A stretch of 64,000 nucleotides of DNA from assembly GCF_963921235.1 (NCBI RefSeq), contig NC_086097.1:160892001-160956000 (forward strand), written 5' to 3'. Numbering within the stretch: position 1 is the first letter of the stretch; every line of letters begins with the position of its first letter. This document shows positions 6,601 to 61,430 of the stretch, one piece after another. Under the pieces are notes generated by a model. That model saw nothing but the letters and a program-made list of their open reading frames with translations. It did no database searches and was not told the origin of the DNA. A program made the position numbers and the translations under genes. The stretch comes from Mobula hypostoma. Its lineage: Eukaryota.

Positions 6601-8675
6601 ATGTATGGTTAAAACAAAAACAAAACAAAAAGGCTGATGATTTAATGCCGATAATTTATTTTTAGTTTCTTGTTATTCCTAGCAGCCTGCTAAACTTTTC
6701 AGTCAGAGGACTGTAGTTGGTTTTTAAGGACATTATGATGAACTTTCACGTGAGAATAAAACCACGAGGCACTCATTATGGCCTGGAACTGTGCCAGCCA
6801 TCCTGAAGTTAGTTAAGCAAAGGTGCTTTGGATGCCCAGATACTTTGGACAAACACACCTCAGGAAGTATGCAAGGGCCCTATTCCAACTACACTTGTTT
6901 TTAACTGGGATATATTAAAATCAATATAGTCCCATTCATCCAGCAAGCTCAGGATGTTGAACTAATAGATTTTGCAGCAACAAACAAAATGCTAGAGAAA
7001 CTGACCTGGGCCAGGCAGCATCTATGGAGGGAACCAGACAATCAACCCTTCATGTCATGGCCCTTCATCTTTCTAGCATCTGTTGTCTCCAGAGTCTCTA
7101 ATAGTTTTCCAGACTATCAGATGGGGTTATTTTTATTAACACTCCAACAAATCAGAATCAGAATCAGGTTTATTATCACCAACATATCTCCTGAAATCTG
7201 TTGTTTTGCAGCAGCAGTACAGTGCAATACTTGAAAGGTACTTAAATGACAATGAATATATTAAAAAATGTGAAAAGAGAACAGAATAGTTGGTGTTCAA
7301 GGGCTTACAGGACACTTAGGAAATCTGATGGCGGAGAGAAAGAAGCTGTTACAAAAAACATTGAGTGTGTGTCTTCAGGCTCCAGTCCCTTCTCCCTGAT
7401 GGTAGCAACGGGAAGAAGACACGTCATGGATGATGAGGGTACTTCCATATTGGATCTGTCTTCTTGAAACATCACATTTGAAGATGTTGTTGTTGATGGG
7501 GAGGTTAATATCCGTGCTGGAGCTGATTCTGTGCAATGCTGCCTCTACCAGACGCTGATGCAACTTCTTAGAATGCTGTCCACCCTACACCTGTAAAACA
7601 TTGCTAGCATCTTTAGTGGCATACCAAATCTCTTCAAATTCCTACTGAAATATAGCCTTTGGCATGTCTTCTTCATGATCGCATCAATGTGTTGATACAT
7701 TTCTTTTGATTAAAAAAAACTTTTCGTTCTCCTTTCTTACACAGTACCATTTCAGTGAACCCAGTAAGTTTCAAGGCAACAGAGCTGTATGAGTTTAAAG
7801 AGAGCATGGGAACTGGGATGGGACCCCAATGATTGGAGTGGGAGTGTGAAAATCAGAGACAACCAACTCAACCACACAGACCATGGGCATGTACACTGAA
7901 GTCTCTGCATGTAATGTTGCTTCCCAAGACAATGTTCCTTATTCGAATCACAGCTCCAGTGATCCAGATTCAATCCTGACCTCCTGTGCTGTGTGAGCTT
8001 TACACAGTCTCCCTGTGATTGTATGTATTTATTTTCTGGGTGCTCTACTTTCTTCCCAAACCCCAAAGACATGGACACTATGAGCTTCATTAATCTAATA
8101 GGGTTTATTTAAGATTACCGGGATACAGGGATAGGGGAATGGGATTGCTCTGTATAGCATGGGCCCCTGGTGTAAAGAAATTTGGAAATTGCAGGTTCAA
8201 ATCTAGTTAGGATACATCCTGACCACATAAACTGCTCTAACTAAAGTCAGTAATCTTCTGTGACTATGAACATGCTGCATAATCACAGAAAGTTCATGAC
8301 CCTTTTGCTCAACTGCACCAATCACAACTGCCTGCATGAAGGTGATAGCCATCCATGCCTTGCGTACATGCCTACCTATTTAGTGTATCGATGGAACCAC
8401 TGACAGAAGACTGCTATCAACTTGAAACGTTAACCCTATTTCCCTCCACATTGATTCTGACAAAGGTGCACTTAACGTTGCACAATATTTCCATTCTTAA
8501 GGAAAATTGTGTCAATATATCACAGTAAACTTATTTCAATGAAGATTTATAATGTGTTGGAAATCATTTATCATTACTCCCCTAATCTATGTACACAGAA
8601 TGATAAACACACATTTAACACACCTTGTTCTCAAGTCTCCAGTATTAATTGTTTAATTCATAGAAAAGTTATGGT

Positions 8676-8681
8676 TTTATT
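8676..8681 (-). terminator. Candidate poly(A) signal of the 55-aa basic protein gene
   Basis: AATAAA on the minus strand about 140 nt after the TGA at 8823. Confidence 0.5.
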
Positions 8682-8822
8682 CATAAGGTAAACATAATCC
8701 CATAGCCGTCAGATACAGCTCTTCAATGGTAGCAAGATGTTATTTATGTAGAGTAGTTCATTTTTTCTGCTATCCTTCATCCAATTGAAGTTTTCTTCTG
8801 GAGCTTAGTAGATGGCAGCAAG

Positions 8823-8990
8823 TCATTTCCCTCCTTTCTTCTTGCACTTTTTGTTGGGTTTCAGTTTGGGTAGAGACCTGTGTTGAACATATTTCGGGGA
8901 CACATATCTGATAGATTTTGCTTTCTTGCCTCGTTTATTGTGCCATTGACGGCAGATGCTATGGGTTGTATAGGCTTTTGACTTAGTCAT
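8823..8990 (-). CDS. Unrecognised 55-aa Lys-rich basic protein, putative spermatid/sperm nuclear basic protein (MTKSKAYTTHSICRQWHNKRGKKAKSIRYVSPKYVQHRSLPKLKPNKKCKKKGGK)
   Basis: Translated by hand. Start context ACAACCATG; 15 K, 4 R, no D/E; MTKS start as in S1; same strand as the other SNBP genes. Upstream tgccttttaagatatt (9091-9106) matches the Z2 promoter at 15 of 16 nt; downstream AATAAA. Confidence 0.7.
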   Translation of the reverse strand: MTKSKAYTTHSICRQWHNKRGKKAKSIRYVSPKYVQHRSLPKLKPNKKCKKKGGK

Positions 8991-11027
8991 GGTTGTGTTT
9001 GTCTTTGACGCAGCTCACCCTGATTTCAGCTGTGTATTACATAGGCTGTGATGCACACAATGATCATCATCATCATTTCTGGTAATTTATTGCCTTTTAA
9101 GATATTAGGATATATTCAGATTATGATGTATTTCCTATGGTGCAAGATCACTGTTTTACAAAGTTATAATTTGTTACATACTTTCCTTTGAGTATTGTGC
9201 ATTACTAAGAACATCAAAAAGTGAATATCAAAAAAATAGAGTAAGAGAAAGATAGAACATGGAAAATTACTGTTGGGCCCAGTGAGTCCACCATGACCAT
9301 CAATTACCCATTTATTTACGCAAGTCCCATTTAAAAAAAACACCCCACAGTTTCATTAATCCCCTTTGGATTTAACCGCTCACTACGTACAAGTAGCAAT
9401 TTAGAGTGTCCATTTAAAATATCATCCCTCACCATCAGGACGAAACTGAGGGAAAGCCACTGAGTCACAGTAAGAACATGCAAGCTCTATGCGGCTCGTG
9501 CCCGAGGTCCGGATTGAACTAGGCCTCTGATATTGAGAAGCAGTGGCTTTTCAAGCCGCACCATTGTGCTGCCCAACTATGTGGCTTGGGGGTAAGGATA
9601 ACTAGACTGTAACAGAATGGGACAGTGCAAAAACAGAAATTCATTGCTTAATAAGGATCAAGTAAGAAAAAGTGAAGTGATAAACATGGTCACTAGCACA
9701 AAAATATTTAAAAGTGCAAATCCAGAAGTGCTTGATCCGAATGCTCAAAGCATTTGTAATATGTTAGATGAATGAGCAGAGCAAATAGATGTAAATGAAT
9801 ACAATATCACTGATATTACGGAGAGCAAGAAACAGTCTGCTGGAGGATTGAGCAGCATCTGATATTGTCCGTTACTATTACGGAGATATGGCTGCAATAG
9901 GATAAAGACTGGGAGCTTAACATCAACCAATATCAACCTTTTAGCAATGATAGGCACAAGAAGAAAAGGAGGTAGAATGGAATATGAATTAGTTCAGTTT
10001 GAAAGTAGGGTTTTAAATTTAAACAAATGAAAATATACAAACGGGTAAAAGGATGCAGAATGAGTTGATAATGATGCATTCGGGACGGGGGGGAACATCG
10101 ACTCAGACCATGAGAGGCCTGCGTCAGGCATTTTCATGCCTTACAAGGCGCAGATTGGAAGTCTGTGTGGGGCACTACTAGAGCAATGTGTGATTAAGTG
10201 CCTTGCCACAGCTGAGGCTCGAACTAGCGACCTTGAGGTAACTAGACAAATGCCTTAACCACTTGGCCACATGCCCAACGCATTGGTGAACTTCATTGAA
10301 ACTCATGACTGCTAACAATTAAGGAACAAATAAAGGAACAGCGGTAGTTATACTGATGCAAAAACACAAAAGGAAAAGCAACATAGGTATGATTTACAAA
10401 AGAAGTTCAGGGTAGCATCAGAATCAAAGAAGCTTATAAAATTGCCAGGAACAGCAAGCTTGAGGATTGGGAGCCATTTAGAATCAGCAAAAATGTTGGT
10501 GATACTAAATTTGATTCTGATTATTGCATATAAAATACATATACAGATTTCAAATTAATTAATTGCTACAACTGCAGCTTGTATTGATCTAAAACGTAAT
10601 GAAAAATATTATTCTCAGCATACTAGTATGTAAATGGTGTTAAGTAAGGAGAGATAGCTAGCTAATAACATAGTCAAATAATAACATGTTCAAACAAGAG
10701 GAGTTAACAGGGAATCTGAATTTATCAATATTTAACAGGAAGAAATGATGATTCTTCCAAGATGAGTATAATTAATTCATTGAATATTATACCTATTCAT
10801 TGCTAATATAAAAACCTGTTTCCACACTTTTCCTTTGAACTTAAATGAGGCCTTGAGCAGGTGAATTCCTTTAGACAGAGAATTAACTGCTTTCCCACAG
10901 GACGTAGACTTACATGGTGAGTGGTAGGGCACTGAGGAGAGTGAGGGATCTGGGAATACGATGCATAGTTACTTGAAAGTGCCATCAGAGGTAGATAGGG
11001 TGCTAAAAGAAAAGCAGGACAAAGGCA

Positions 11028-14747: not shown

Positions 14748-14984
14748 TCACACATTCTTCTTCAAAGATACTTTTTGATTGAGTGTTTCATTAAGGCTCT
14801 TGTTTTTAACTTTTAAAGTATTATCGAGTTCGTTATCTAACTTCTGAATCTTTGGCGGCCTTCGTTTGGGCTGTACATAACGAGGCCTCCGTTGGATTCT
14901 TGTTCTTCTGCCGCTGACTTTTCTTGCTCGTCGTACTTTTGCTAGCCGTTTGCGGGCACGGTTCTGTCTCCTTGACTTGACCAT
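14748..14984 (-). CDS. Spermatid-specific basic protein S2 homologue (78 aa)
   Basis: MVKSRRQNRARKRLAKVRR...KLDNELDNTLKVKNKSLNETLNQKVSLKKNV aligns with the recalled dogfish S2 (VKSRY...KLDNEVDNTLKAKNKSLNEALKNRLSLRKHV). TATATAA at 15058-15064; AATAAA downstream. Confidence 0.9.
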   Translation of the reverse strand: MVKSRRQNRARKRLAKVRRARKVSGRRTRIQRRPRYVQPKRRPPKIQKLDNELDNTLKVKNKSLNETLNQKVSLKKNV

Positions 14985-15057: not shown

Positions 15058-15179
15058 TTATATAGCGTACACTGTGTTGCAACACAATGTAACTTGAAAT
15101 TTGTATTTTATTCTGCATTACCTTATTTGGTATTGATGTGGATATCATGATACACCACAGGTGGTATATCCTTATTAGG
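15058..15179 (-). promoter_or_regulatory. S2 promoter: TATA box and two CArG boxes
   Basis: TATATAA 15058-15064 (minus strand); CCTTATTTGG 15121-15130; CCTTATTAGG 15170-15179. Confidence 0.7.
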
Positions 15180-25675: not shown

Positions 25676-25942
25676 TCAGACAGGCACCCTCATGGGCATT
25701 CTATGCTGCTTAAGCGATTCATTAAGACGTCTGTTGTTCTTTACTTTCAAATTTTCAATTTCATCTCGGAGTCTGCTGCGGCGTTTTTGATGCACACTCT
25801 TCCGTACCTTTCTCCTGTAGGAGGCATGACGAGGTCTGCGGCTGACTCGCCGCCCTCTCCTTCGACCCTTTGATTTACGCAGCCGCCTACCATATCGGTT
25901 ACGTGGTCGGCTGCGTCTGGTACGATATCGTGACTTGGTCAT
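25676..25942 (-). CDS. Spermatid-specific basic protein S1 homologue (88 aa)
   Basis: MTKSRYRTRRSRPRNRYGRR...RDEIENLKVKNNRRLNESLKQHRMPMRVPV is nearly colinear with the recalled dogfish S1 (TKSRYRNRRSRPRRRYGRR...NLKVKNNRRLNESLKQHRLPMRVPV). Confidence 0.93.
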   Translation of the reverse strand: MTKSRYRTRRSRPRNRYGRRLRKSKGRRRGRRVSRRPRHASYRRKVRKSVHQKRRSRLRDEIENLKVKNNRRLNESLKQHRMPMRVPV

Positions 25943-26023: not shown

Positions 26024-26310
26024 TTTTAATGCCTGCAAGCACCATTGTTGAGTGACATAATCATACCATGTTTGGTCTGAAGCCATATTTTGTATTCATA
26101 GAGATGTAAATGGCACCTTATAAGGTGAATACACTGATACATTGATCATATCATTTTATTGGTGAGTTTGATCAATACACAATGGATTTCAGTGTCTTTA
26201 TACCAATGTCATGCCATATATGGACAAAATTTGTAATGCCTTTGGTGAGTGATGTAATCGTACCATGTAGGGTCTGAAGAACCATATTTTGTATTCATCA
26301 AGATGTAAAT
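26024..26310 (-). promoter_or_regulatory. S1 promoter: TATA-like ATTAAAA, CArG boxes, duplicated CRE-like block
   Basis: ATTAAAA 26024-26030 (minus); CCTTATAAGG 26116-26125; CCATATATGG 26214-26223; direct repeat of about 63 bp at 26049-26111 and 26246-26310. Confidence 0.65.
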
Positions 26311-42381: not shown

Positions 42382-42513
42382 TTACCGATGACAACGTCTT
42401 GAAGCTCTTCGCCGATGAACAAGATGTGCTCTGACAATAGTACTTGATTTTCGTTTGCAAGGTTTCTTGCCATTTCTACGCCTGCGCCTGCGTTTGCGCA
42501 CACACCTCTTCAT
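42382..42513 (-). CDS. Cysteine-containing protamine Z2 (scylliorhinine Z2) homologue, 43 aa (MKRCVRKRRRRRRNGKKPCKRKSSTIVRAHLVHRRRASRRCHR)
   Basis: Translated by hand. SSTIVRAHLVHRR core and the Arg run match the recalled dogfish Z2; TATAAAA at 42561-42567. Confidence 0.92.
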   Translation of the reverse strand: MKRCVRKRRRRRRNGKKPCKRKSSTIVRAHLVHRRRASRRCHR

Positions 42514-43817: not shown

Positions 43818-43934
43818 TCACTCAGCTCTTCGCCGATGAACAAGATGTGCTCTGACAATAGTACTTGATTTTCGTTTGCAAGGTTTCTTGCCATTTCTAC
43901 GCCTGCGCCTGCGTTTGCGCACACACCTCTTCAT
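43818..43934 (-). pseudogene. 3'-truncated Z2 duplicate, 38 aa (...VHRRRAE*)
   Basis: 43824-44028 equals 42403-42607 with one mismatch in 205 bp; the stop codon comes from flanking DNA; CArG boxes and the 3' UTR are missing. Confidence 0.8.
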
Positions 43935-45949
43935 GCTTCAGCCTTCAGCCACTGACCGCTTTGGAAGTGTTCAGTCTCTAGTTTTATAGACTTTCCAGCA
44001 TCCTGCCCTATTGTCATGTCATCATGATGGTCATGTAGGAGTTCAAAGTAAACTTATTATCAAAGTACATACATGTTACCATATACTACTACCTTAAGAT
44101 TCATTTTCTTGCTGGCATTTATAGGAATAAAATGAATACTGTTGAATTTACTGAAAATTATACATAAACAGTTAAAAACTGACAAATAACCAACGTGCAA
44201 AAGAAATCAAACGGTGCAAAACAACCTAATGCTGAGAGCAAGAGTTCCAGAATCCTTGAAAGCGAGTCAGCAAGAAGGTTCTAGAATCCGTTCAAAGTAG
44301 TGGTTGCTGAAGTTATCCATGTCGGTTCAAGAGCCTGATTGTTGTAGGATATTAACTGTATCTGAACCTCAATGTCAAAGTAAAATTTATTATCAAAGTA
44401 CGTATATATATTACCAAATACTATCTTAAGATCCATTTTTTTGCAGGCATTTACAGGAAAATAAAGAAATACAACAGAATTTATGAAAAAATATTCATAA
44501 ATGTACACTGACAAACAAACAATGTGCTAAAGATAATGATTTGTGTAAATAAGAAATAATACTGAGAACATGAGCTGTAAAGAGTTCTTGAAGAGTTTGT
44601 GTGTAGAATCAGTTCATAGTTATGGTGCACAGATGAAGTTATTCACGCTGATTCAGGAGCCTGGTAGTTGTAGGGTAATTGTTCCTGAACCTGGTGGTGT
44701 GTGCTCTGTCACTGCATCGCTGCTGGGTTGCTAATGAGTCCATATGCACAATCCCTGTACCATTGATTGGAGAAGTTAAGTTTCACCAAGAGAAAAAAAA
44801 GTTGTAATAAAGGAGAGAGCAAAGAAGACAAAAGAAGAGTAAGAATAATATAAAGCTTTTAAATATGATTTATTAACTGCTGGACCAAGATACCATAGTT
44901 TCATTTGTTCTGTTTCTGAACTGGAACTAATGGCTAGCACTGAAGGAACATGCAATCAAGGGGATACTGGCCCTGTTAAATACCAACCCTATCTTTCTGC
45001 AAATTCAGCAATTTCTTGTGCAAAAGTCACAAGGCAGGTTAATTTATGGAGATATGAACATCATAAAAGTATTTCTTTCTAATCATAAGTGGCTAGGTCA
45101 TTCCAGACATATCTTTACAGCTTAAATCTGTTATTTTCTCAGCAAATTCTATGTATTTGTGTCATTATTTCAGAGCTGCTGTCCTGAAATCAATCAATAA
45201 CATAAAGTAAAAACAATAAGGATCACAGCAACATTCCCAGAAAACAGCACAATTATTCTACTCCATTATTATAATTCCTTTTTTTTTTTCACCAATGACT
45301 GCATTGGTGCTGCTTCCTGCACCCATGCTGAACTCGTTGACTTCATCCACTTTGCCTCCAATTTCCATCCTGCCCTCAAATTTACCTGGGAAAGAGGGAG
45401 AAGAGGGGAGCAGTAGTGATAGGGGACTCGACAGTCAGAGAAACAGACAGAAGATTCTGTGGATGTGAATGGGACACCCAGATGGTATGTTGCTTCCCAT
45501 GTACCACGGTCAGGGACATCTTGATCATGTCCACAGCATTTTGGAGAGGGAGAGAGAGCAGCCAGATGTCTTGGTACAGATTGGTACCAATGACATAGGA
45601 AGGAAAAGCAAAGAGGGCCTGAAAAGAGAATTCAGAGAACTTGGCAAAAAACCAAGAAGCAGGACCTCAAGGGTACTAATTTCTGGATTGCTGCCTATTC
45701 CATACGCCAGTAAGGGTAGAAACAGGATGAATTGGCAGATAAATGTGTGGCAGTGAAACTGGTGCAGGGGGCAGGGCTTCAAGTTCTTGGGTGATTGGGA
45801 TCTCTTCTAGGGGGGAATGACCTGTACAAAAGTGACACCTGGGAGCAATATTCTCATGGACAGCTTAGTTAGGACTCTTGGGAAGGGTTTAAACTAATTT
45901 GGCCAGGGGCTAGGAACTGGAGTGAAGGGACTCAGGATAGGACACTGAA

Positions 45950-55102: not shown

Positions 55103-55267
55103 TTAACATCTTCTTCTCCCTCTTCTTCTTCTTTTTGGCAATCTTCTAATGTGGCATCTTCTTCGATATATTTTAGACCTGTCCCTCTTAGTTAGACATA
55201 ATCGTCGTAAGTGCCGCCTCCGTAAATAACAAGTTTCTGTCTTCTTAACTGGCTTAGAGCGCTTCAT
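55103..55267 (-). CDS. Cysteine-containing protamine Z1 (scylliorhinine Z1) homologue, 54 aa ([54 protein letters not shown])
   Basis: Translated by hand. [11 protein letters not shown]...KRD-x-SK-x-YRRR-x-H-x-RRLPK...C matches the recalled dogfish Z1. Confidence 0.92.
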
Positions 55268-59060: not shown

Positions 59061-59174
59061 CATAAGGATCAGTTGCCTCTACATTTTGCTGCCAGTCGAC
59101 CCAGTGGTGCTCTCAACATAGTACAGATGCTACTGAGGTCCTCAAACAAAGATGCTCGATTGATGCAAGATAAG
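59061..59174 (+). CDS. trpn1: TRPN1/NompC mechanosensitive channel, ankyrin-repeat exon (HKDQLPLHFAASRPSGALNIVQMLLRSSNKDARLMQDK)
   Basis: tttatttcag acceptor, gtagga donor, 114 nt, phase 0/0; aligns with the recalled Drosophila NompC QTAVHLVSSRQTGTATNILRALLAAAGKDIRLKAD. Confidence 0.85.
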
Positions 59175-61430
59175 GTAGGAGATAGGGACTCTTTACCTTT
59201 AAAAACCGTAGCTAAGTATGTTTGGGTTCTATTCATGTATAGTGAATGTGTAATAAATTCTGGCCCTGTCCTTGGTTTTATAAAATATTACTGATATACT
59301 GTTAACTTGCTATACTTCTTTCTCAAAAAAGAGCTTACACTTTTAATCAATGAATGAAAACTTGAATCTTTTATTTCAAATAGTAATGGAATGACAATTT
59401 TTCATTCTTATCTATTGTCCAGAAAAAGCAATGATTTACCTCATTAATGTTCATCAGTATAACATTGCAACGAAGAACAGCTAATAAACTAGCTTCTGCT
59501 GATCAATAATTGACTACCCTACTGCTGAAGTATCTTCTCTCTGGGAGAGGATTACTTACATAAAAAATAGATTACAAAGAAATCTAGGATTTTCAAGACA
59601 AAGAAAAGCTCTGTGTAGAGAACTTACTTGATCATCATGACTTTCAAATCTCTTGCATGTGATAATCTTTTCACTTATCAATACCTACAGAGTTGTTATT
59701 CCTCTCTGTGCCTTGTGGTGCATTGGGCAACAACCTTGCCATTTCTTTTGCATTTTGTTTGTTTTTTTATGAGGCTGAGTCAGCATCGATGGAAGGCGTG
59801 TGAGGAGCCGGCTGAATTCGAACCCAGGACCACTCGCATTAAAGGCTGGGTGCTGACGCCACTACACCACCAGCTGGCTATCAATACCTACAATACCTGT
59901 TAATTGTGATGCATTTCATTTATCTTTCACATTTGCCAAATTACTGAATATACTCAAGTCATCTGTACTTAAATGAAACAGAGATCATGGAACTACTCAG
60001 CTAGTCAGACAGAATCTGCAAAAGAAAAACAGCTAAGATTTCAAGCACATGGTCTTGCCTGAGAACTAACCTACTGGTCCTGCCAGTTTTGCTTATTTTG
60101 TTTTTCTTTCTTTAAGATTTTGCATAAATGTGTCATTCTCTAGTATTAATTGCTGTTGTAATAATTCACAAGAAAGCAGTGTTTTCAACTCAAATGACAT
60201 TGCTTGAGCTGAGTTTCTGGAGGTGCCTATAATCGTCAGTTGACACACTTGCCCATATTTAACAATAGCAACCAAAAACAATTTTCTCCATGATTATCCA
60301 GTCCAAAACCAGACGGTGGTAAATCTGATTCAGATATTACAGCAATTACAGAGTTAGAATTCTCCTGAAAAGCCACCTTCAATATTCAGGTGCTTTTTAG
60401 GACTGCAATATTTTACGAAAATTCATATTTAGGATAGAATGTCAAAACTGCCATTAAACTATTTTTAATAATCATCATAGATTTAACTGAATTGTTGGTA
60501 CTAAACAATGCCTAATTATTATTTAGTAGCAACAATTTATTTTTAATTTATAATGATTATTAGGAATATTTTAATGGTGGTGTTTTTAATAGATCAAATT
60601 AATAGTCTTAAAAATTTGATTTTCATTCTTTTATTTTTTCAGGATAAGATATTCAACCAAGGGTCTATCTACTCTCTTGAATATGTGTAATAAATCCTTT
60701 AGTGTGGACGAGGAGTGAGAGAATCATCTTAAATGCAAAAAAAAGCTGCTGGAGAATTCAGCAGGCCAGGCAGCATCTGCAGAGGAAAACGGACAGTCGA
60801 TCTTTTGGGTTAAGAGTTTCATTTAGACCCTTCATCGAGACAATTCATCAATCCAGAGCAAGGGCTTCAACCCAAAATATCAACAATCTAGTTGATCCAC
60901 AGATGCTACCTGACTCCAACATCTGTAGTTTCTTGAGTTAGTCTCAGTATTCTGGGTCAAATTTAATAAACAAGGATAAATAAAGACTTTCCAGTAATAA
61001 TCACATACTTTGTCCAAGTGTCTCAATCCCATCAAGCAGATGGAAATGGTGTAACTTACAAGCTCCCCCCTAAGTTGTATGGTATACTGGCTTTGAAAAA
61101 TATTATTATCCCTTAACCATCATCCAATTCAGGTCACGGCACTTATACAATAGTGAATCTAGATCCTGGAACTCCCTGCACAATAGTGCTATGGAAGTAC
61201 CTTCGCTAAAAGAGTCACAGATATTTAAGAGAGCAGCTTCTCGGGGCATCTGGGGAAGGACAGCAATATAGTTACAGGATCTTGCTGTGTGTTAGCTAAC
61301 TGCTGTACTTCTTGCACTACCATGGTAACCACATCACAAAAGTATTATGAAGGGATGAAAGGCAATACCTAAATGTCGGTCTTTTCTTCTTCTGTGACCA
61401 CACTTTGTTCCACTTTGTTTTTTTTCATAG

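What the first reader, a model, noticed from the sequence alone, without database searches (positions are those of the whole stretch)
8823..9135. Unrecognised 55-aa Lys-rich member of the cluster
Seen: an ORF with 15 K, 4 R, 2 C and no acidic residue, an MTKS start like S1 (MTKSRY) and S2 (MVKSR), an SPK motif, good start context and AATAAA at 8676-8681. Its upstream region shares three motifs with its neighbours: tgccttttaagatatt (Z2 has tgccttttaaggtatt), gcacacaatg (S2 has gcaacacaatg) and ttatgatgta (same 10 nt upstream of Z1). It does not resemble the dogfish S1, S2, Z1, Z2, Z3 or S4 as I recall them. Inference: a new transition-type spermatid protein.
Basis: partly seen in the sequence, partly recalled or inferred. 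Interest (0 to 1): 0.85.

Follow-up and report, generated by a model that had tools for sequence, protein, structure and literature searches.

The report
Ribosomal gene copy among sperm genes
A ray carries an old, intron-free copy of a ribosomal protein gene (RPL29) that has changed heavily, stayed intact in related species, and sits among the genes that pack sperm DNA, so a ribosome part may have been recruited for sperm chromatin.

Summary
The 55-aa ORF (8990-8823, minus strand) is real, but it is not unrecognisable. It is an intronless derivative of ribosomal protein eL29/RPL29: 32 of 32 PDB hits are eL29, and it aligns ungapped with this genome's own three-coding-exon RPL29 (23/55 identical, z 11.8) across both coding introns.

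It is single-copy and frame-intact in 4 of 4 other organisms laid. Listed changes are 7 synonymous and 6 non-synonymous (pN/pS 0.24-0.34). Two probable RNA assemblies cover it, one at depth 882; tissue is unknown.

It has lost 17 of 29 residues shared by ray and distant eL29s, lost both acidic residues and gained two cysteines. It lies co-oriented with S2-, S1-, Z2- and Z1-like genes, antisense within one ~62-kb TRPN1 intron, and shares their 3' end element and an upstream box.

Best reading (55%): an RPL29 retrocopy recruited as a spermatid basic nuclear protein. Main rival (20%): a testis ribosome paralogue. The basic composition is mostly inherited from RPL29, so it proves nothing alone. 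Boldest reading (25%): S1/S2 also descend from RPL29; in-register tests support this, profile searches do not.

The parts
8823..8990 (-). Single-exon ORF, 55 aa, 6.5 kDa, pI 10.8; intronless RPL29/eL29 derivative (codons 1-55 colinear with RPL29, spanning both RPL29 coding introns)
   Evidence: frame intact in runs X1, X3, X4, X5
8676..8822 (-). 3' UTR up to AATAAA (8681-8676); aligns weakly but colinearly with the end of the RPL29 last exon and its AATAAA, so probably inherited from the RPL29 mRNA
   Evidence: z 2.9; score reached by 1.9% of 376 flank stretches ending in AATAAA
8632..8657 (-). Cluster-type 3' end: ATTAAA (8657-8652) then TACTGGAGACTTG (8644-8632), matching the elements behind S1 and Z2; marks the mRNA end in Z2
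   Evidence: Z2 retro-fragment L033 turns to A-run right after GAGACTTGG
9037..9043 (-). TATA-like TATGTAA, 53 nt before the ATG (Z2 TATAAAA at -54, Z1 at -63, S2 at -80); function inferred
9046..9062 (-). 17-nt element just upstream of the TATA-like box, two edits from the S2 18-mer in the same position
9091..9106 (-). Box shared with Z2 (15/16 nt); a one-mismatch form of the CC(A/T)6GG (CArG-type, name recalled) box found perfect upstream of S1, S2, Z1 and Z2
9121..9130 (-). TACATCATAA, shared with the Z1 upstream region; CRE/ATF-like by recall
14748..14984 (-). Neighbour: S2-like gene, 78 aa (name recalled; related to S1, z 8.3)
25676..25942 (-). Neighbour: S1 orthologue, 88 aa, 82% identical to dogfish spermatid-specific protein S1 (P13275)
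42382..42513 (-). Neighbour: Z2-like protamine, 43 aa (name recalled)
43818..43934 (-). 3'-truncated recent duplicate of the Z2-like gene (204/205 nt identical over promoter and 5' CDS)
55103..55267 (-). Neighbour: Z1-like protamine, 54 aa (name recalled)
59061..59180 (+). TRPN1 (nompC) exon closing the ~61.8-kb intron that holds the whole cluster; the previous exon ends about 2,740 nt before the window

Best explanation
ORIGIN (shown, about 97%): a spliced RPL29 mRNA was retroposed long ago into an intron of TRPN1. It sits antisense, in line with the S2/S1/Z2/Z1 sperm-protein genes, with a cluster-type promoter in front and a cluster-type 3' end behind its inherited AATAAA.

SELECTION (shown with few sites): after heavy change it is now conserved among related organisms.

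FUNCTION (inferred): it is transcribed with its neighbours in spermatids by the shared promoter elements. It no longer carries most conserved eL29 residues. The small, acid-free, lysine-rich product binds nucleic acid and acts as an accessory intermediate (transition-type) protein during histone replacement. The two new cysteines may allow cross-linking or zinc binding, and SPK may be a phosphorylation site.
For: Origin: 32 of 32 PDB sequences at E<=10 are eL29, best 5.8e-6, ungapped 1-55. Top three atlas hits are L29. 23/55 identity to the genome's own RPL29 on C58, z 11.8, spread over all three exons (6/12, 9/22, 8/21), no intron at either position.
Age: third positions 23/55 identical; the ORF keeps T9, Y29 and S31 seen in the four PDB chains printed where the ray's RPL29 has N, F and P.
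Selection: no indel in the ORF in 4 of 4 laid runs; all indels fall in UTR or flank; stop TGA reads TAA in all four. 7 synonymous and 6 non-synonymous distinct changes, pN/pS 0.24-0.34, P 0.008-0.036; codons 15-45 have 5 synonymous and 0 non-synonymous listed changes.
Transcription: X1 contig 8651-8982 and X3 contig 8709-9001 (depth 882 in a 138-Mb assembly) lie inside the predicted transcript, while X4 and X5 run on into the promoter.
Cluster regulation: the 3' pattern has 15 matches in 3.48 Gb (reversed control 36), three of them behind this ORF, S1 and Z2; upstream boxes shared.
Departure from eL29: 17 of 29 positions identical in ray RPL29 and two metagenome eL29s are changed, 13 of 21 outside the scan pattern; Pfam L29e 16 bits against a cut-off of 27; D+E 2 to 0, C 0 to 2, S+T 4 to 8.
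Against: No tissue, localisation or protein evidence; 'RNA' for X1 and X3 is the tool's guess. Composition barely differs from the parent (net +19 against +16). K/R is 3.75, the opposite of its arginine-rich neighbours (0.31-0.81). It keeps eL29's length and register with no indel, which could mean a retained ribosome-related role. ORF-against-UTR divergence is not significant alone (Fisher p 0.06 and 0.09). The selection test rests on 13 sites with no tree or multiple-hit correction. Up to 4 X4 differences and 1 X1 difference were not listed, and X1 does not cover the first 8 nt. Its upstream box is only a one-mismatch form, which alone occurs 0.3 times per 250 nt. By recall, dogfish biochemistry reported S1, S2, Z1, Z2, Z3 and S4 and no such protein; those papers were not available.
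Confidence: 0.55

Rival explanations
1. A testis- or spermatid-specific eL29 paralogue that still enters the 60S subunit (or pre-60S), like the mammalian retrogenes RPL10L and RPL39L, and borrows the cluster's promoter for late expression.
For: Ungapped register and near-equal length with eL29; 23/55 identity including W16 and H17. eL29 is a non-essential ribosomal protein (PMC7291024, passages), so it may tolerate change. Testis RP retrogenes are known (PMC8605100, PMC7671327, passages).
Against: RPL39L is 94% identical to RPL39 (PMC8605100), against 42% here. Much of the N-terminal and central eL29 motifs is lost (N6, H7, N11, Q12, K15, R18, N19, G20, I21, P24, G34, D36, K38, F39, R41, N42). 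Below the Pfam cut-off.
Confidence: 0.2
2. A spermatid-expressed eL29 derivative with a non-chromatin, non-ribosomal job, such as binding stored mRNA (for example protamine mRNA) or polyanions at the sperm surface.
For: eL29 has known extra-ribosomal heparin/heparan-sulphate binding (PMC7291024). The ancestor is an RNA binder, and the lysine bias fits RNA or polyanion binding as well as DNA.
Against: No signal peptide is evident from the sequence. All identified neighbours sharing its regulatory elements are nuclear sperm proteins. No direct evidence.
Confidence: 0.12
3. The ray counterpart of an already described elasmobranch sperm protein, such as the lysine- and cysteine-rich protamine S4 of dogfish (recalled), perhaps as a precursor.
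For: No S4- or Z3-like ORF is evident in the window or 100 kb either side; the ORF is lysine-rich with two cysteines.
Against: phmmer over 1.84 billion representatives found only one repetitive 827-aa false hit, but the same search also missed RPL29, so it is insensitive here. No S4 sequence came from any call, so the comparison was not made.
Confidence: 0.06
4. A non-functional or only incidentally transcribed processed pseudogene that kept its frame by chance.
For: Intronless RP copies are typically pseudogenes (general knowledge). The relatives laid are close (93-98% in the ORF by listed differences). The TATA box is degenerate.
Against: About 44% nucleotide divergence from RPL29 with no stop or frameshift over 55 codons. 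Excess of synonymous change, conserved stop position and indels confined to non-coding parts. Depth 882 contig in X3.
Confidence: 0.07

Closest known systems
Ribosomal protein eL29 / RPL29 (Pfam PF01779)
   Same: Colinear ungapped homology over residues 1-55; similar length and lysine-rich make-up; remnant of the 3' UTR and AATAAA.
   Different: No introns; 42% identity; 17 of 29 conserved positions changed; two cysteines, no acidic residue; different locus (C1 against C58); cluster-type promoter and 3' end.
Testis ribosomal-protein retrogenes RPL10L and RPL39L (mammals)
   Same: Intronless, retained copy of a ribosomal protein gene, presumably germ-line expressed.
   Different: Those stay close to the parent (RPL39L 94%, PMC8605100) and work in ribosomes. 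This one is far more diverged and embedded in a sperm-chromatin cluster.
Dogfish spermatid intermediate proteins S1 (P13275) and S2
   Same: Same cluster and strand, single exon, shared 3' element and upstream boxes, M-x-K-S start. In-register similarity to S1 residues 2-28 (10/27 identical, p 1e-4 in a post hoc test).
   Different: Lysine- not arginine-rich; lacks the S1/S2 C-terminal acidic LK.KN..LNE block; no significant free-alignment or profile match.
Mammalian transition proteins TNP1 / TNP2
   Same: Small and basic; TNP1 is also about 55 aa (recalled); proposed stage of action.
   Different: No Pfam TP1/TP2 hit. The cluster is on C1 inside TRPN1, while RMI2 and the adjacent SOCS-box gene, which flank the mammalian PRM/TNP2 cluster (recalled), are on C36.
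Histone H1/H5-derived protamine-like proteins (standard origin of protamines)
   Same: Proposed recruitment of an existing basic nucleic-acid-binding protein for sperm chromatin.
   Different: The donor here is a ribosomal protein; no winged-helix domain. PMC13251019 (passage) states the PL-to-H5 relationship.

Membership tests
eL29/RPL29 homologues | Significant colinear sequence homology to eL29 | tested here: met
   32/32 hits, E 5.8e-6; z 11.8; E 2e-5 to a metagenome eL29
eL29/RPL29 homologues | Pfam PF01779 gathering score (27 bits) | tested here: not met
   16 bits for residues 1-42, no hit for the whole protein
Functional ribosomal eL29 | Conserved N-terminal and central motif residues retained | tested here: not met
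   12 of 29 kept (8 of the 29 positions were selected by the scan pattern, 8 of 21 kept outside it)
Functional ribosomal eL29 | Incorporation into 60S subunits | not testable with these tools
   needs fractionation or cryo-EM
Processed retrocopy | Loss of the parent's introns | tested here: met
   RPL29 coding introns at codon 13 (phase 1) and 34/35 (phase 0), GT-AG; the ORF is continuous across both
Processed retrocopy | Parent 3' UTR to the poly(A) signal; poly(A) tail and target-site duplication | tested here: inconclusive
   UTR alignment weak (about 2% of nulls); no A-tail seen; target-site duplication not searched for
Functional retrogene | Intact ORF under purifying selection in other species | tested here: met
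   (4 of 4 runs; pN/pS 0.24-0.34; 13 sites)
Functional retrogene | Transcribed | tested here: inconclusive
   two contigs from runs guessed to be RNA cover only the predicted transcript; no run on record as RNA
Spermatid intermediate / transition proteins | Small, highly basic | tested here: met
   55 aa, 35% K+R, pI 10.8, but inherited from RPL29
Spermatid intermediate / transition proteins | Transient presence in elongating-spermatid nuclei | not testable with these tools
   no tissue or protein data
S1/S2 family | Arginine-rich N-terminal half plus acidic C-terminal block | tested here: not met
   K/R 3.75, no acidic residue, no C-terminal block
S/Z cluster transcription unit | Shared 3' end element and upstream boxes, same strand, single exon | tested here: met
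Mammalian TNP1/TNP2 | Pfam TP1/TP2 match or RMI2-SOCS1 synteny | tested here: not met
   TNP1 synteny not tested

The most novel reading that the evidence does not exclude
The chondrichthyan spermatid intermediate proteins themselves descend from an RPL29 retrocopy. One insertion in the TRPN1 intron duplicated in tandem; one copy became arginine-rich (S1, then S2) and this ORF is the least changed survivor. A vertebrate sperm-chromatin protein family would then derive from a ribosomal protein rather than from histone H1.

For: the best ungapped offset of S1 against RPL29 is exactly Met-to-Met for 3 of 3 elasmobranch-type S1s; S1 codons 2-28 share 30/54 first-and-second positions with RPL29 against 15.8 expected (p 2e-4); ATG-to-AATAAA global alignment z 2.7.

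Against: no signal in codons 29-55; free-offset p only 0.017-0.31; none for the two chimaera S1-like proteins, S2, Z1 or Z2; hhalign probability 0.5%; the S1/S2 profile hits an H2B tail weakly (E 0.13) and not eL29.
Probability: 0.25. Interest if true: 0.9.

Novelty: new variant of a known kind. Interest (0 to 1): 0.72.

Why it matters
Sperm basic proteins are usually traced to histone H1/H5-type precursors, and retained ribosomal-protein retrogenes are known as near-identical spare parts for testis ribosomes. This gene fits neither pattern. It is a clearly alignable but heavily remodelled RPL29 copy inside a sperm-chromatin gene cluster, using that cluster's regulatory elements. If it is nuclear, it is a traceable case of a ribosomal protein recruited to chromatin packaging, and it makes the origin of shark and ray S1/S2 directly testable. 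If it is ribosomal, it is an unusually divergent specialised-ribosome component. Either way it was not found in the protein collections searched, and the TRPN1 intron gives a fixed address for finding the cluster in any cartilaginous-fish genome.

Tried and rejected
Word-index protein search: no candidate. phmmer over 1.84 billion representatives: 1 hit, an 827-aa repetitive artefact. Both missed RPL29, so these blanks are not evidence of novelty. Whole-protein Pfam: nothing. Exact look-up: none of the five window proteins is in the collection. Metagenome scan with the ORF: 0 of 520 candidates confirmed.

Paralogy to S2 through the 'PKYVQ / PRYVQ' look-alike: not significant (p 0.09-0.11; offset test p 0.09), and the ORF's V35 is in register with RPL29. 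Upstream and downstream 200-nt local alignments to neighbours: not significant. Remnants of the S1/S2 C-terminal block in the 3' UTR: none apparent; the UTR aligns better to RPL29.

Synteny with the mammalian PRM/TNP2 locus: rejected; no protamine-like ORF seen by eye in 120 kb around RMI2 to the SOCS-box gene. Other copies in the genome: none for the ORF, S1 or the RPL29 last exon. Atlas search with S1: no usable hit. Profile-profile eL29 against S1 family: no match, with shallow alignments of 4 and 5 rows. The invariance table is circular at positions 19-26 and the script ended in an error, so one search is used instead. H2B was not present in the histone loci, so the H2B rival for S1 was not shuffle-tested (one search used H3 and H4).

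Structure and complex prediction were not run (short, probably disordered protein). Earlier findings of this scan: 4 look-ups, nothing returned.

Full report
OBSERVATION. The ORF is as described: 8990-8823 on the minus strand, 55 aa, 15 K, 4 R, 2 C, no acidic residue, AATAAA at 8681-8676. It is one of only five ATG ORFs of 40 aa or more with net charge of 0.30 or more per residue in the window, all on the minus strand; 200 kb of flank hold one. The other four are the neighbours. The 88-aa ORF is 82% identical to dogfish spermatid-specific protein S1, P13275. The 78-aa ORF is related to it (z 8.3) and is called S2-like. The Z2 and Z1 names are recalled and come from no call. Of the three upstream motifs, the Z2 and Z1 matches exceed chance and the S2 10-mer alone does not; its extended 17/18-nt form, directly before the TATA-like box in both genes, is rare.

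SETTING. The genome is 3.48 Gb and the ORF is single-copy. Ankyrin exons nearby are TRPN1/nompC. One exon is 99% identical to the Hemitrygon akajei cluster and 93% to Chiloscyllium and Narcine, so the host is inferred to be a stingray-type ray. tblastn places one exon ending about 2,740 nt before the window and the next at 59061, so the whole cluster lies antisense in one intron of about 61.8 kb. RMI2 and the adjacent SOCS-box gene are on C36, not C1, and I saw no protamine-like ORF between them. The cluster is therefore not at the mammalian PRM/TNP2 address (mammalian gene order recalled).

IT IS A LIVE GENE. Four runs from four other organisms were laid at 80% likeness. All gap letters can be placed from tables 3, 4 and 8, and none is in the ORF; they fall in the 3' UTR, in 9010-9046 or further out. 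The stop reads TAA instead of TGA in all four. The listed ORF differences are 7 synonymous and 6 non-synonymous: pN/pS 0.24-0.34, binomial P 0.008-0.036 depending on transition weighting, with codons 15-45 showing 5 synonymous and no non-synonymous change. Limits: 13 sites, no tree, 25 difference rows not shown (up to four X4 and one X1 differences unplaced), X1 lacks the first 8 nt, and ORF-against-UTR divergence alone is not significant (p 0.06, 0.09). X1 (8651-8982) and X3 (8709-9001, depth 882 in a 138-Mb assembly, with an adapter-like loose end, recalled) cover only the predicted transcript, while X4 and X5 continue into the promoter. This suggests transcription, but RNA is the tool's guess and tissue is unknown.

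IT USES CLUSTER-TYPE SIGNALS. S1 and Z2 share a 23-nt element after their AATAAA (22/23). The ORF has the same element (8644-8632) after an ATTAAA (8657-8652). The pattern has 15 matches genome-wide (reversed control 36), three behind the ORF, S1 and Z2. The pattern was written after seeing these sites, but the S1-Z2 match defines its core independently. A fourth match, L033 on C9, is a 124-nt identical fragment of the Z2 3' end that turns into an A-run right after the element, so the element marks the mRNA end and Z2 has been retroposed. Seven of the window's ten perfect CC(A/T)6GG boxes lie within 250 nt upstream of S2, S1, Z2 and Z1, against 9 in 200 kb of flank.

WHAT IT IS. Large protein searches found nothing useful, but the language-model atlas gave ribosomal protein L29 as the top three hits. 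PDB phmmer confirmed it: 32 of 32 sequences at E<=10 are eL29, best 5.8e-6, ungapped over 1-55. The genome's own RPL29 lies on C58 with three coding exons and GT-AG introns at codon 13 and 34/35. The ORF matches it at 23/55 residues without gaps (z 11.8, above all 5,000 shuffles), in all three exons, and runs across both intron positions, so it is a processed copy. Its 3' UTR aligns weakly with the end of RPL29's last exon, AATAAA to AATAAA; the cluster-type 3' end follows 19 nt later. Third positions are near saturation (23/55), and the ORF keeps T9, Y29 and S31 of other vertebrate eL29s where the ray's RPL29 differs, so the copy is old.

HOW IT MOST LIKELY WORKS. Of 29 positions identical in ray RPL29 and two intronless metagenome eL29s (2 of 71 loci read through that far), the ORF keeps 12; outside the scan pattern it keeps 8 of 21. 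Pfam L29e scores 16 bits against 27. It lost both acidic residues and gained two cysteines, four Ser/Thr and an SPK. Heavy early change followed by conservation is the pattern expected of a new role. Its position and regulatory elements point to spermatids, and every identified neighbour is a nuclear basic protein, so I favour an accessory transition-type chromatin protein (55%). This step is inference. A testis ribosome paralogue (20%) stays open because register and length are kept and eL29 is non-essential (PMC7291024), although RPL39L differs from its parent by only three residues (PMC8605100). A non-chromatin RNA- or polyanion-binding role (12%), identity with a known dogfish protein such as S4 (6%, not compared) and a pseudogene (7%) are less likely.

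THE BOLDER READING. Anchored at Met, S1 resembles the ORF (10/27 identical in residues 2-28, p 1e-4; p 0.002 without MTKS; window chosen after seeing the alignment) and RPL29 (p 0.0015). Across all ungapped offsets the best is Met-to-Met for the ray S1, P0002 and P0005. S1 codons 2-28 share 30/54 first-and-second positions with RPL29 against 15.8 expected; codons 29-55 show nothing (15/54 against 14.4). With free offsets p is only 0.017-0.31. The two Callorhinchus proteins, S2, Z1 and Z2 give no signal in free-offset or global tests (the Callorhinchus pair reach only p 0.02-0.05 anchored). hhalign gives 0.5%, and S1-family profiles find no eL29 in the PDB (weak H2B-tail hit, E 0.13). The S1 rows are not independent. 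I give an RPL29 origin of S1/S2 25%.

LITERATURE. Ten searches listed no paper on an RPL29-derived sperm protein, on this cluster's place in TRPN1, or on a ray gene like this; most subscription papers are outside the library. I saw passages only of PMC11083954, PMC11607694, PMC8605100, PMC13251019, PMC7291024, PMC7671327, PMC8812575 and PMC2110730. Gusse and Chevaillier 1981, Saperas 1997 and Lewis 2004 were seen only as reference-list entries; the last was not held. Supplements were not read; the catshark sperm proteome tables of PMC11083954 might bear on whether an orthologue was detected.

VERDICT. A real, conserved, probably expressed gene. It is an old RPL29 retrogene within the ray sperm-protein cluster, most likely co-opted for spermatid chromatin; function is not shown. 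New variant of a known kind; interest 0.72.

Noticed in passing
window 1-59060 (intron from about -2740 to 59060): The S2/S1/Z2/Z1 cluster is nested antisense in a single ~61.8-kb intron of TRPN1 (nompC); this gives a synteny anchor for other cartilaginous fishes.
   Followed up: yes
window 15121, 15170, 26116, 26214, 42629, 42687, 42715, 55468: Perfect CC(A/T)6GG (CArG-type, recalled) boxes cluster upstream of S2, S1, Z2 and Z1: 7 of the window's 10 within 250 nt of an ATG, an eighth at 272 nt, against 9 in 200 kb of flank. This suggests a shared MADS-box-type regulator of the cluster.
   Followed up: partly
L033 (G000:C9 near 111106263): A 124-nt, 100% identical, 5'-truncated processed fragment of the Z2 mRNA 3' end inserted in a repeat; it shows germ-line transcription of Z2 and the poly(A) site just after GAGACTTGG.
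   Followed up: yes
window 43818-44028 (-): A recent partial duplicate of Z2 (204/205 nt identical) that keeps the TATA box and first 37 codons but lacks the 3' end and the upstream boxes.
   Followed up: partly
window 9010-9046: X4 and X5 carry 21 more bases here than this genome, between the TATA-like box and the ATG, so the 5' UTR was probably shortened in this lineage.
   Followed up: no
window 15068-15091: The S2 element before the TATA box is a near-perfect 24-nt inverted repeat (22/24); S1's upstream region has a 70-nt tandem duplication (26042-26111 / 26239-26310).
   Followed up: no
P0003, P0004: Callorhinchus milii has two uncharacterised S1-like proteins (59-65% identical to the ray S1), so the S1 family predates the holocephalan-elasmobranch split.
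   Followed up: partly
window 25676-25942: The middle of S1 (Y..KV.K.VH) resembles histone H2B residues near 40-49 (profile E 0.13); a rival or additional source for S1.
   Followed up: partly
window and 100 kb on each side: No Z3- or S4-like ORF was seen among ATG ORFs of 20 aa or more with net charge of 0.30 or more; those genes lie elsewhere, are spliced, or are absent in this ray.
   Followed up: partly
L056 (G000:C58:62390271-62394304): This ray's RPL29 is short (61 aa) and differs from the four vertebrate PDB chains printed at otherwise shared positions 9, 29 and 31; no other copy of its last exon was found in the genome.
   Followed up: partly
cluster genes and RPL29: ATG-to-poly(A)-signal lengths are all alike: RPL29 292, this ORF 315 or 339, S2 281, S1 306, Z2 279, Z1 300 nt; consistent with, but weak evidence for, a common template.
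   Followed up: no
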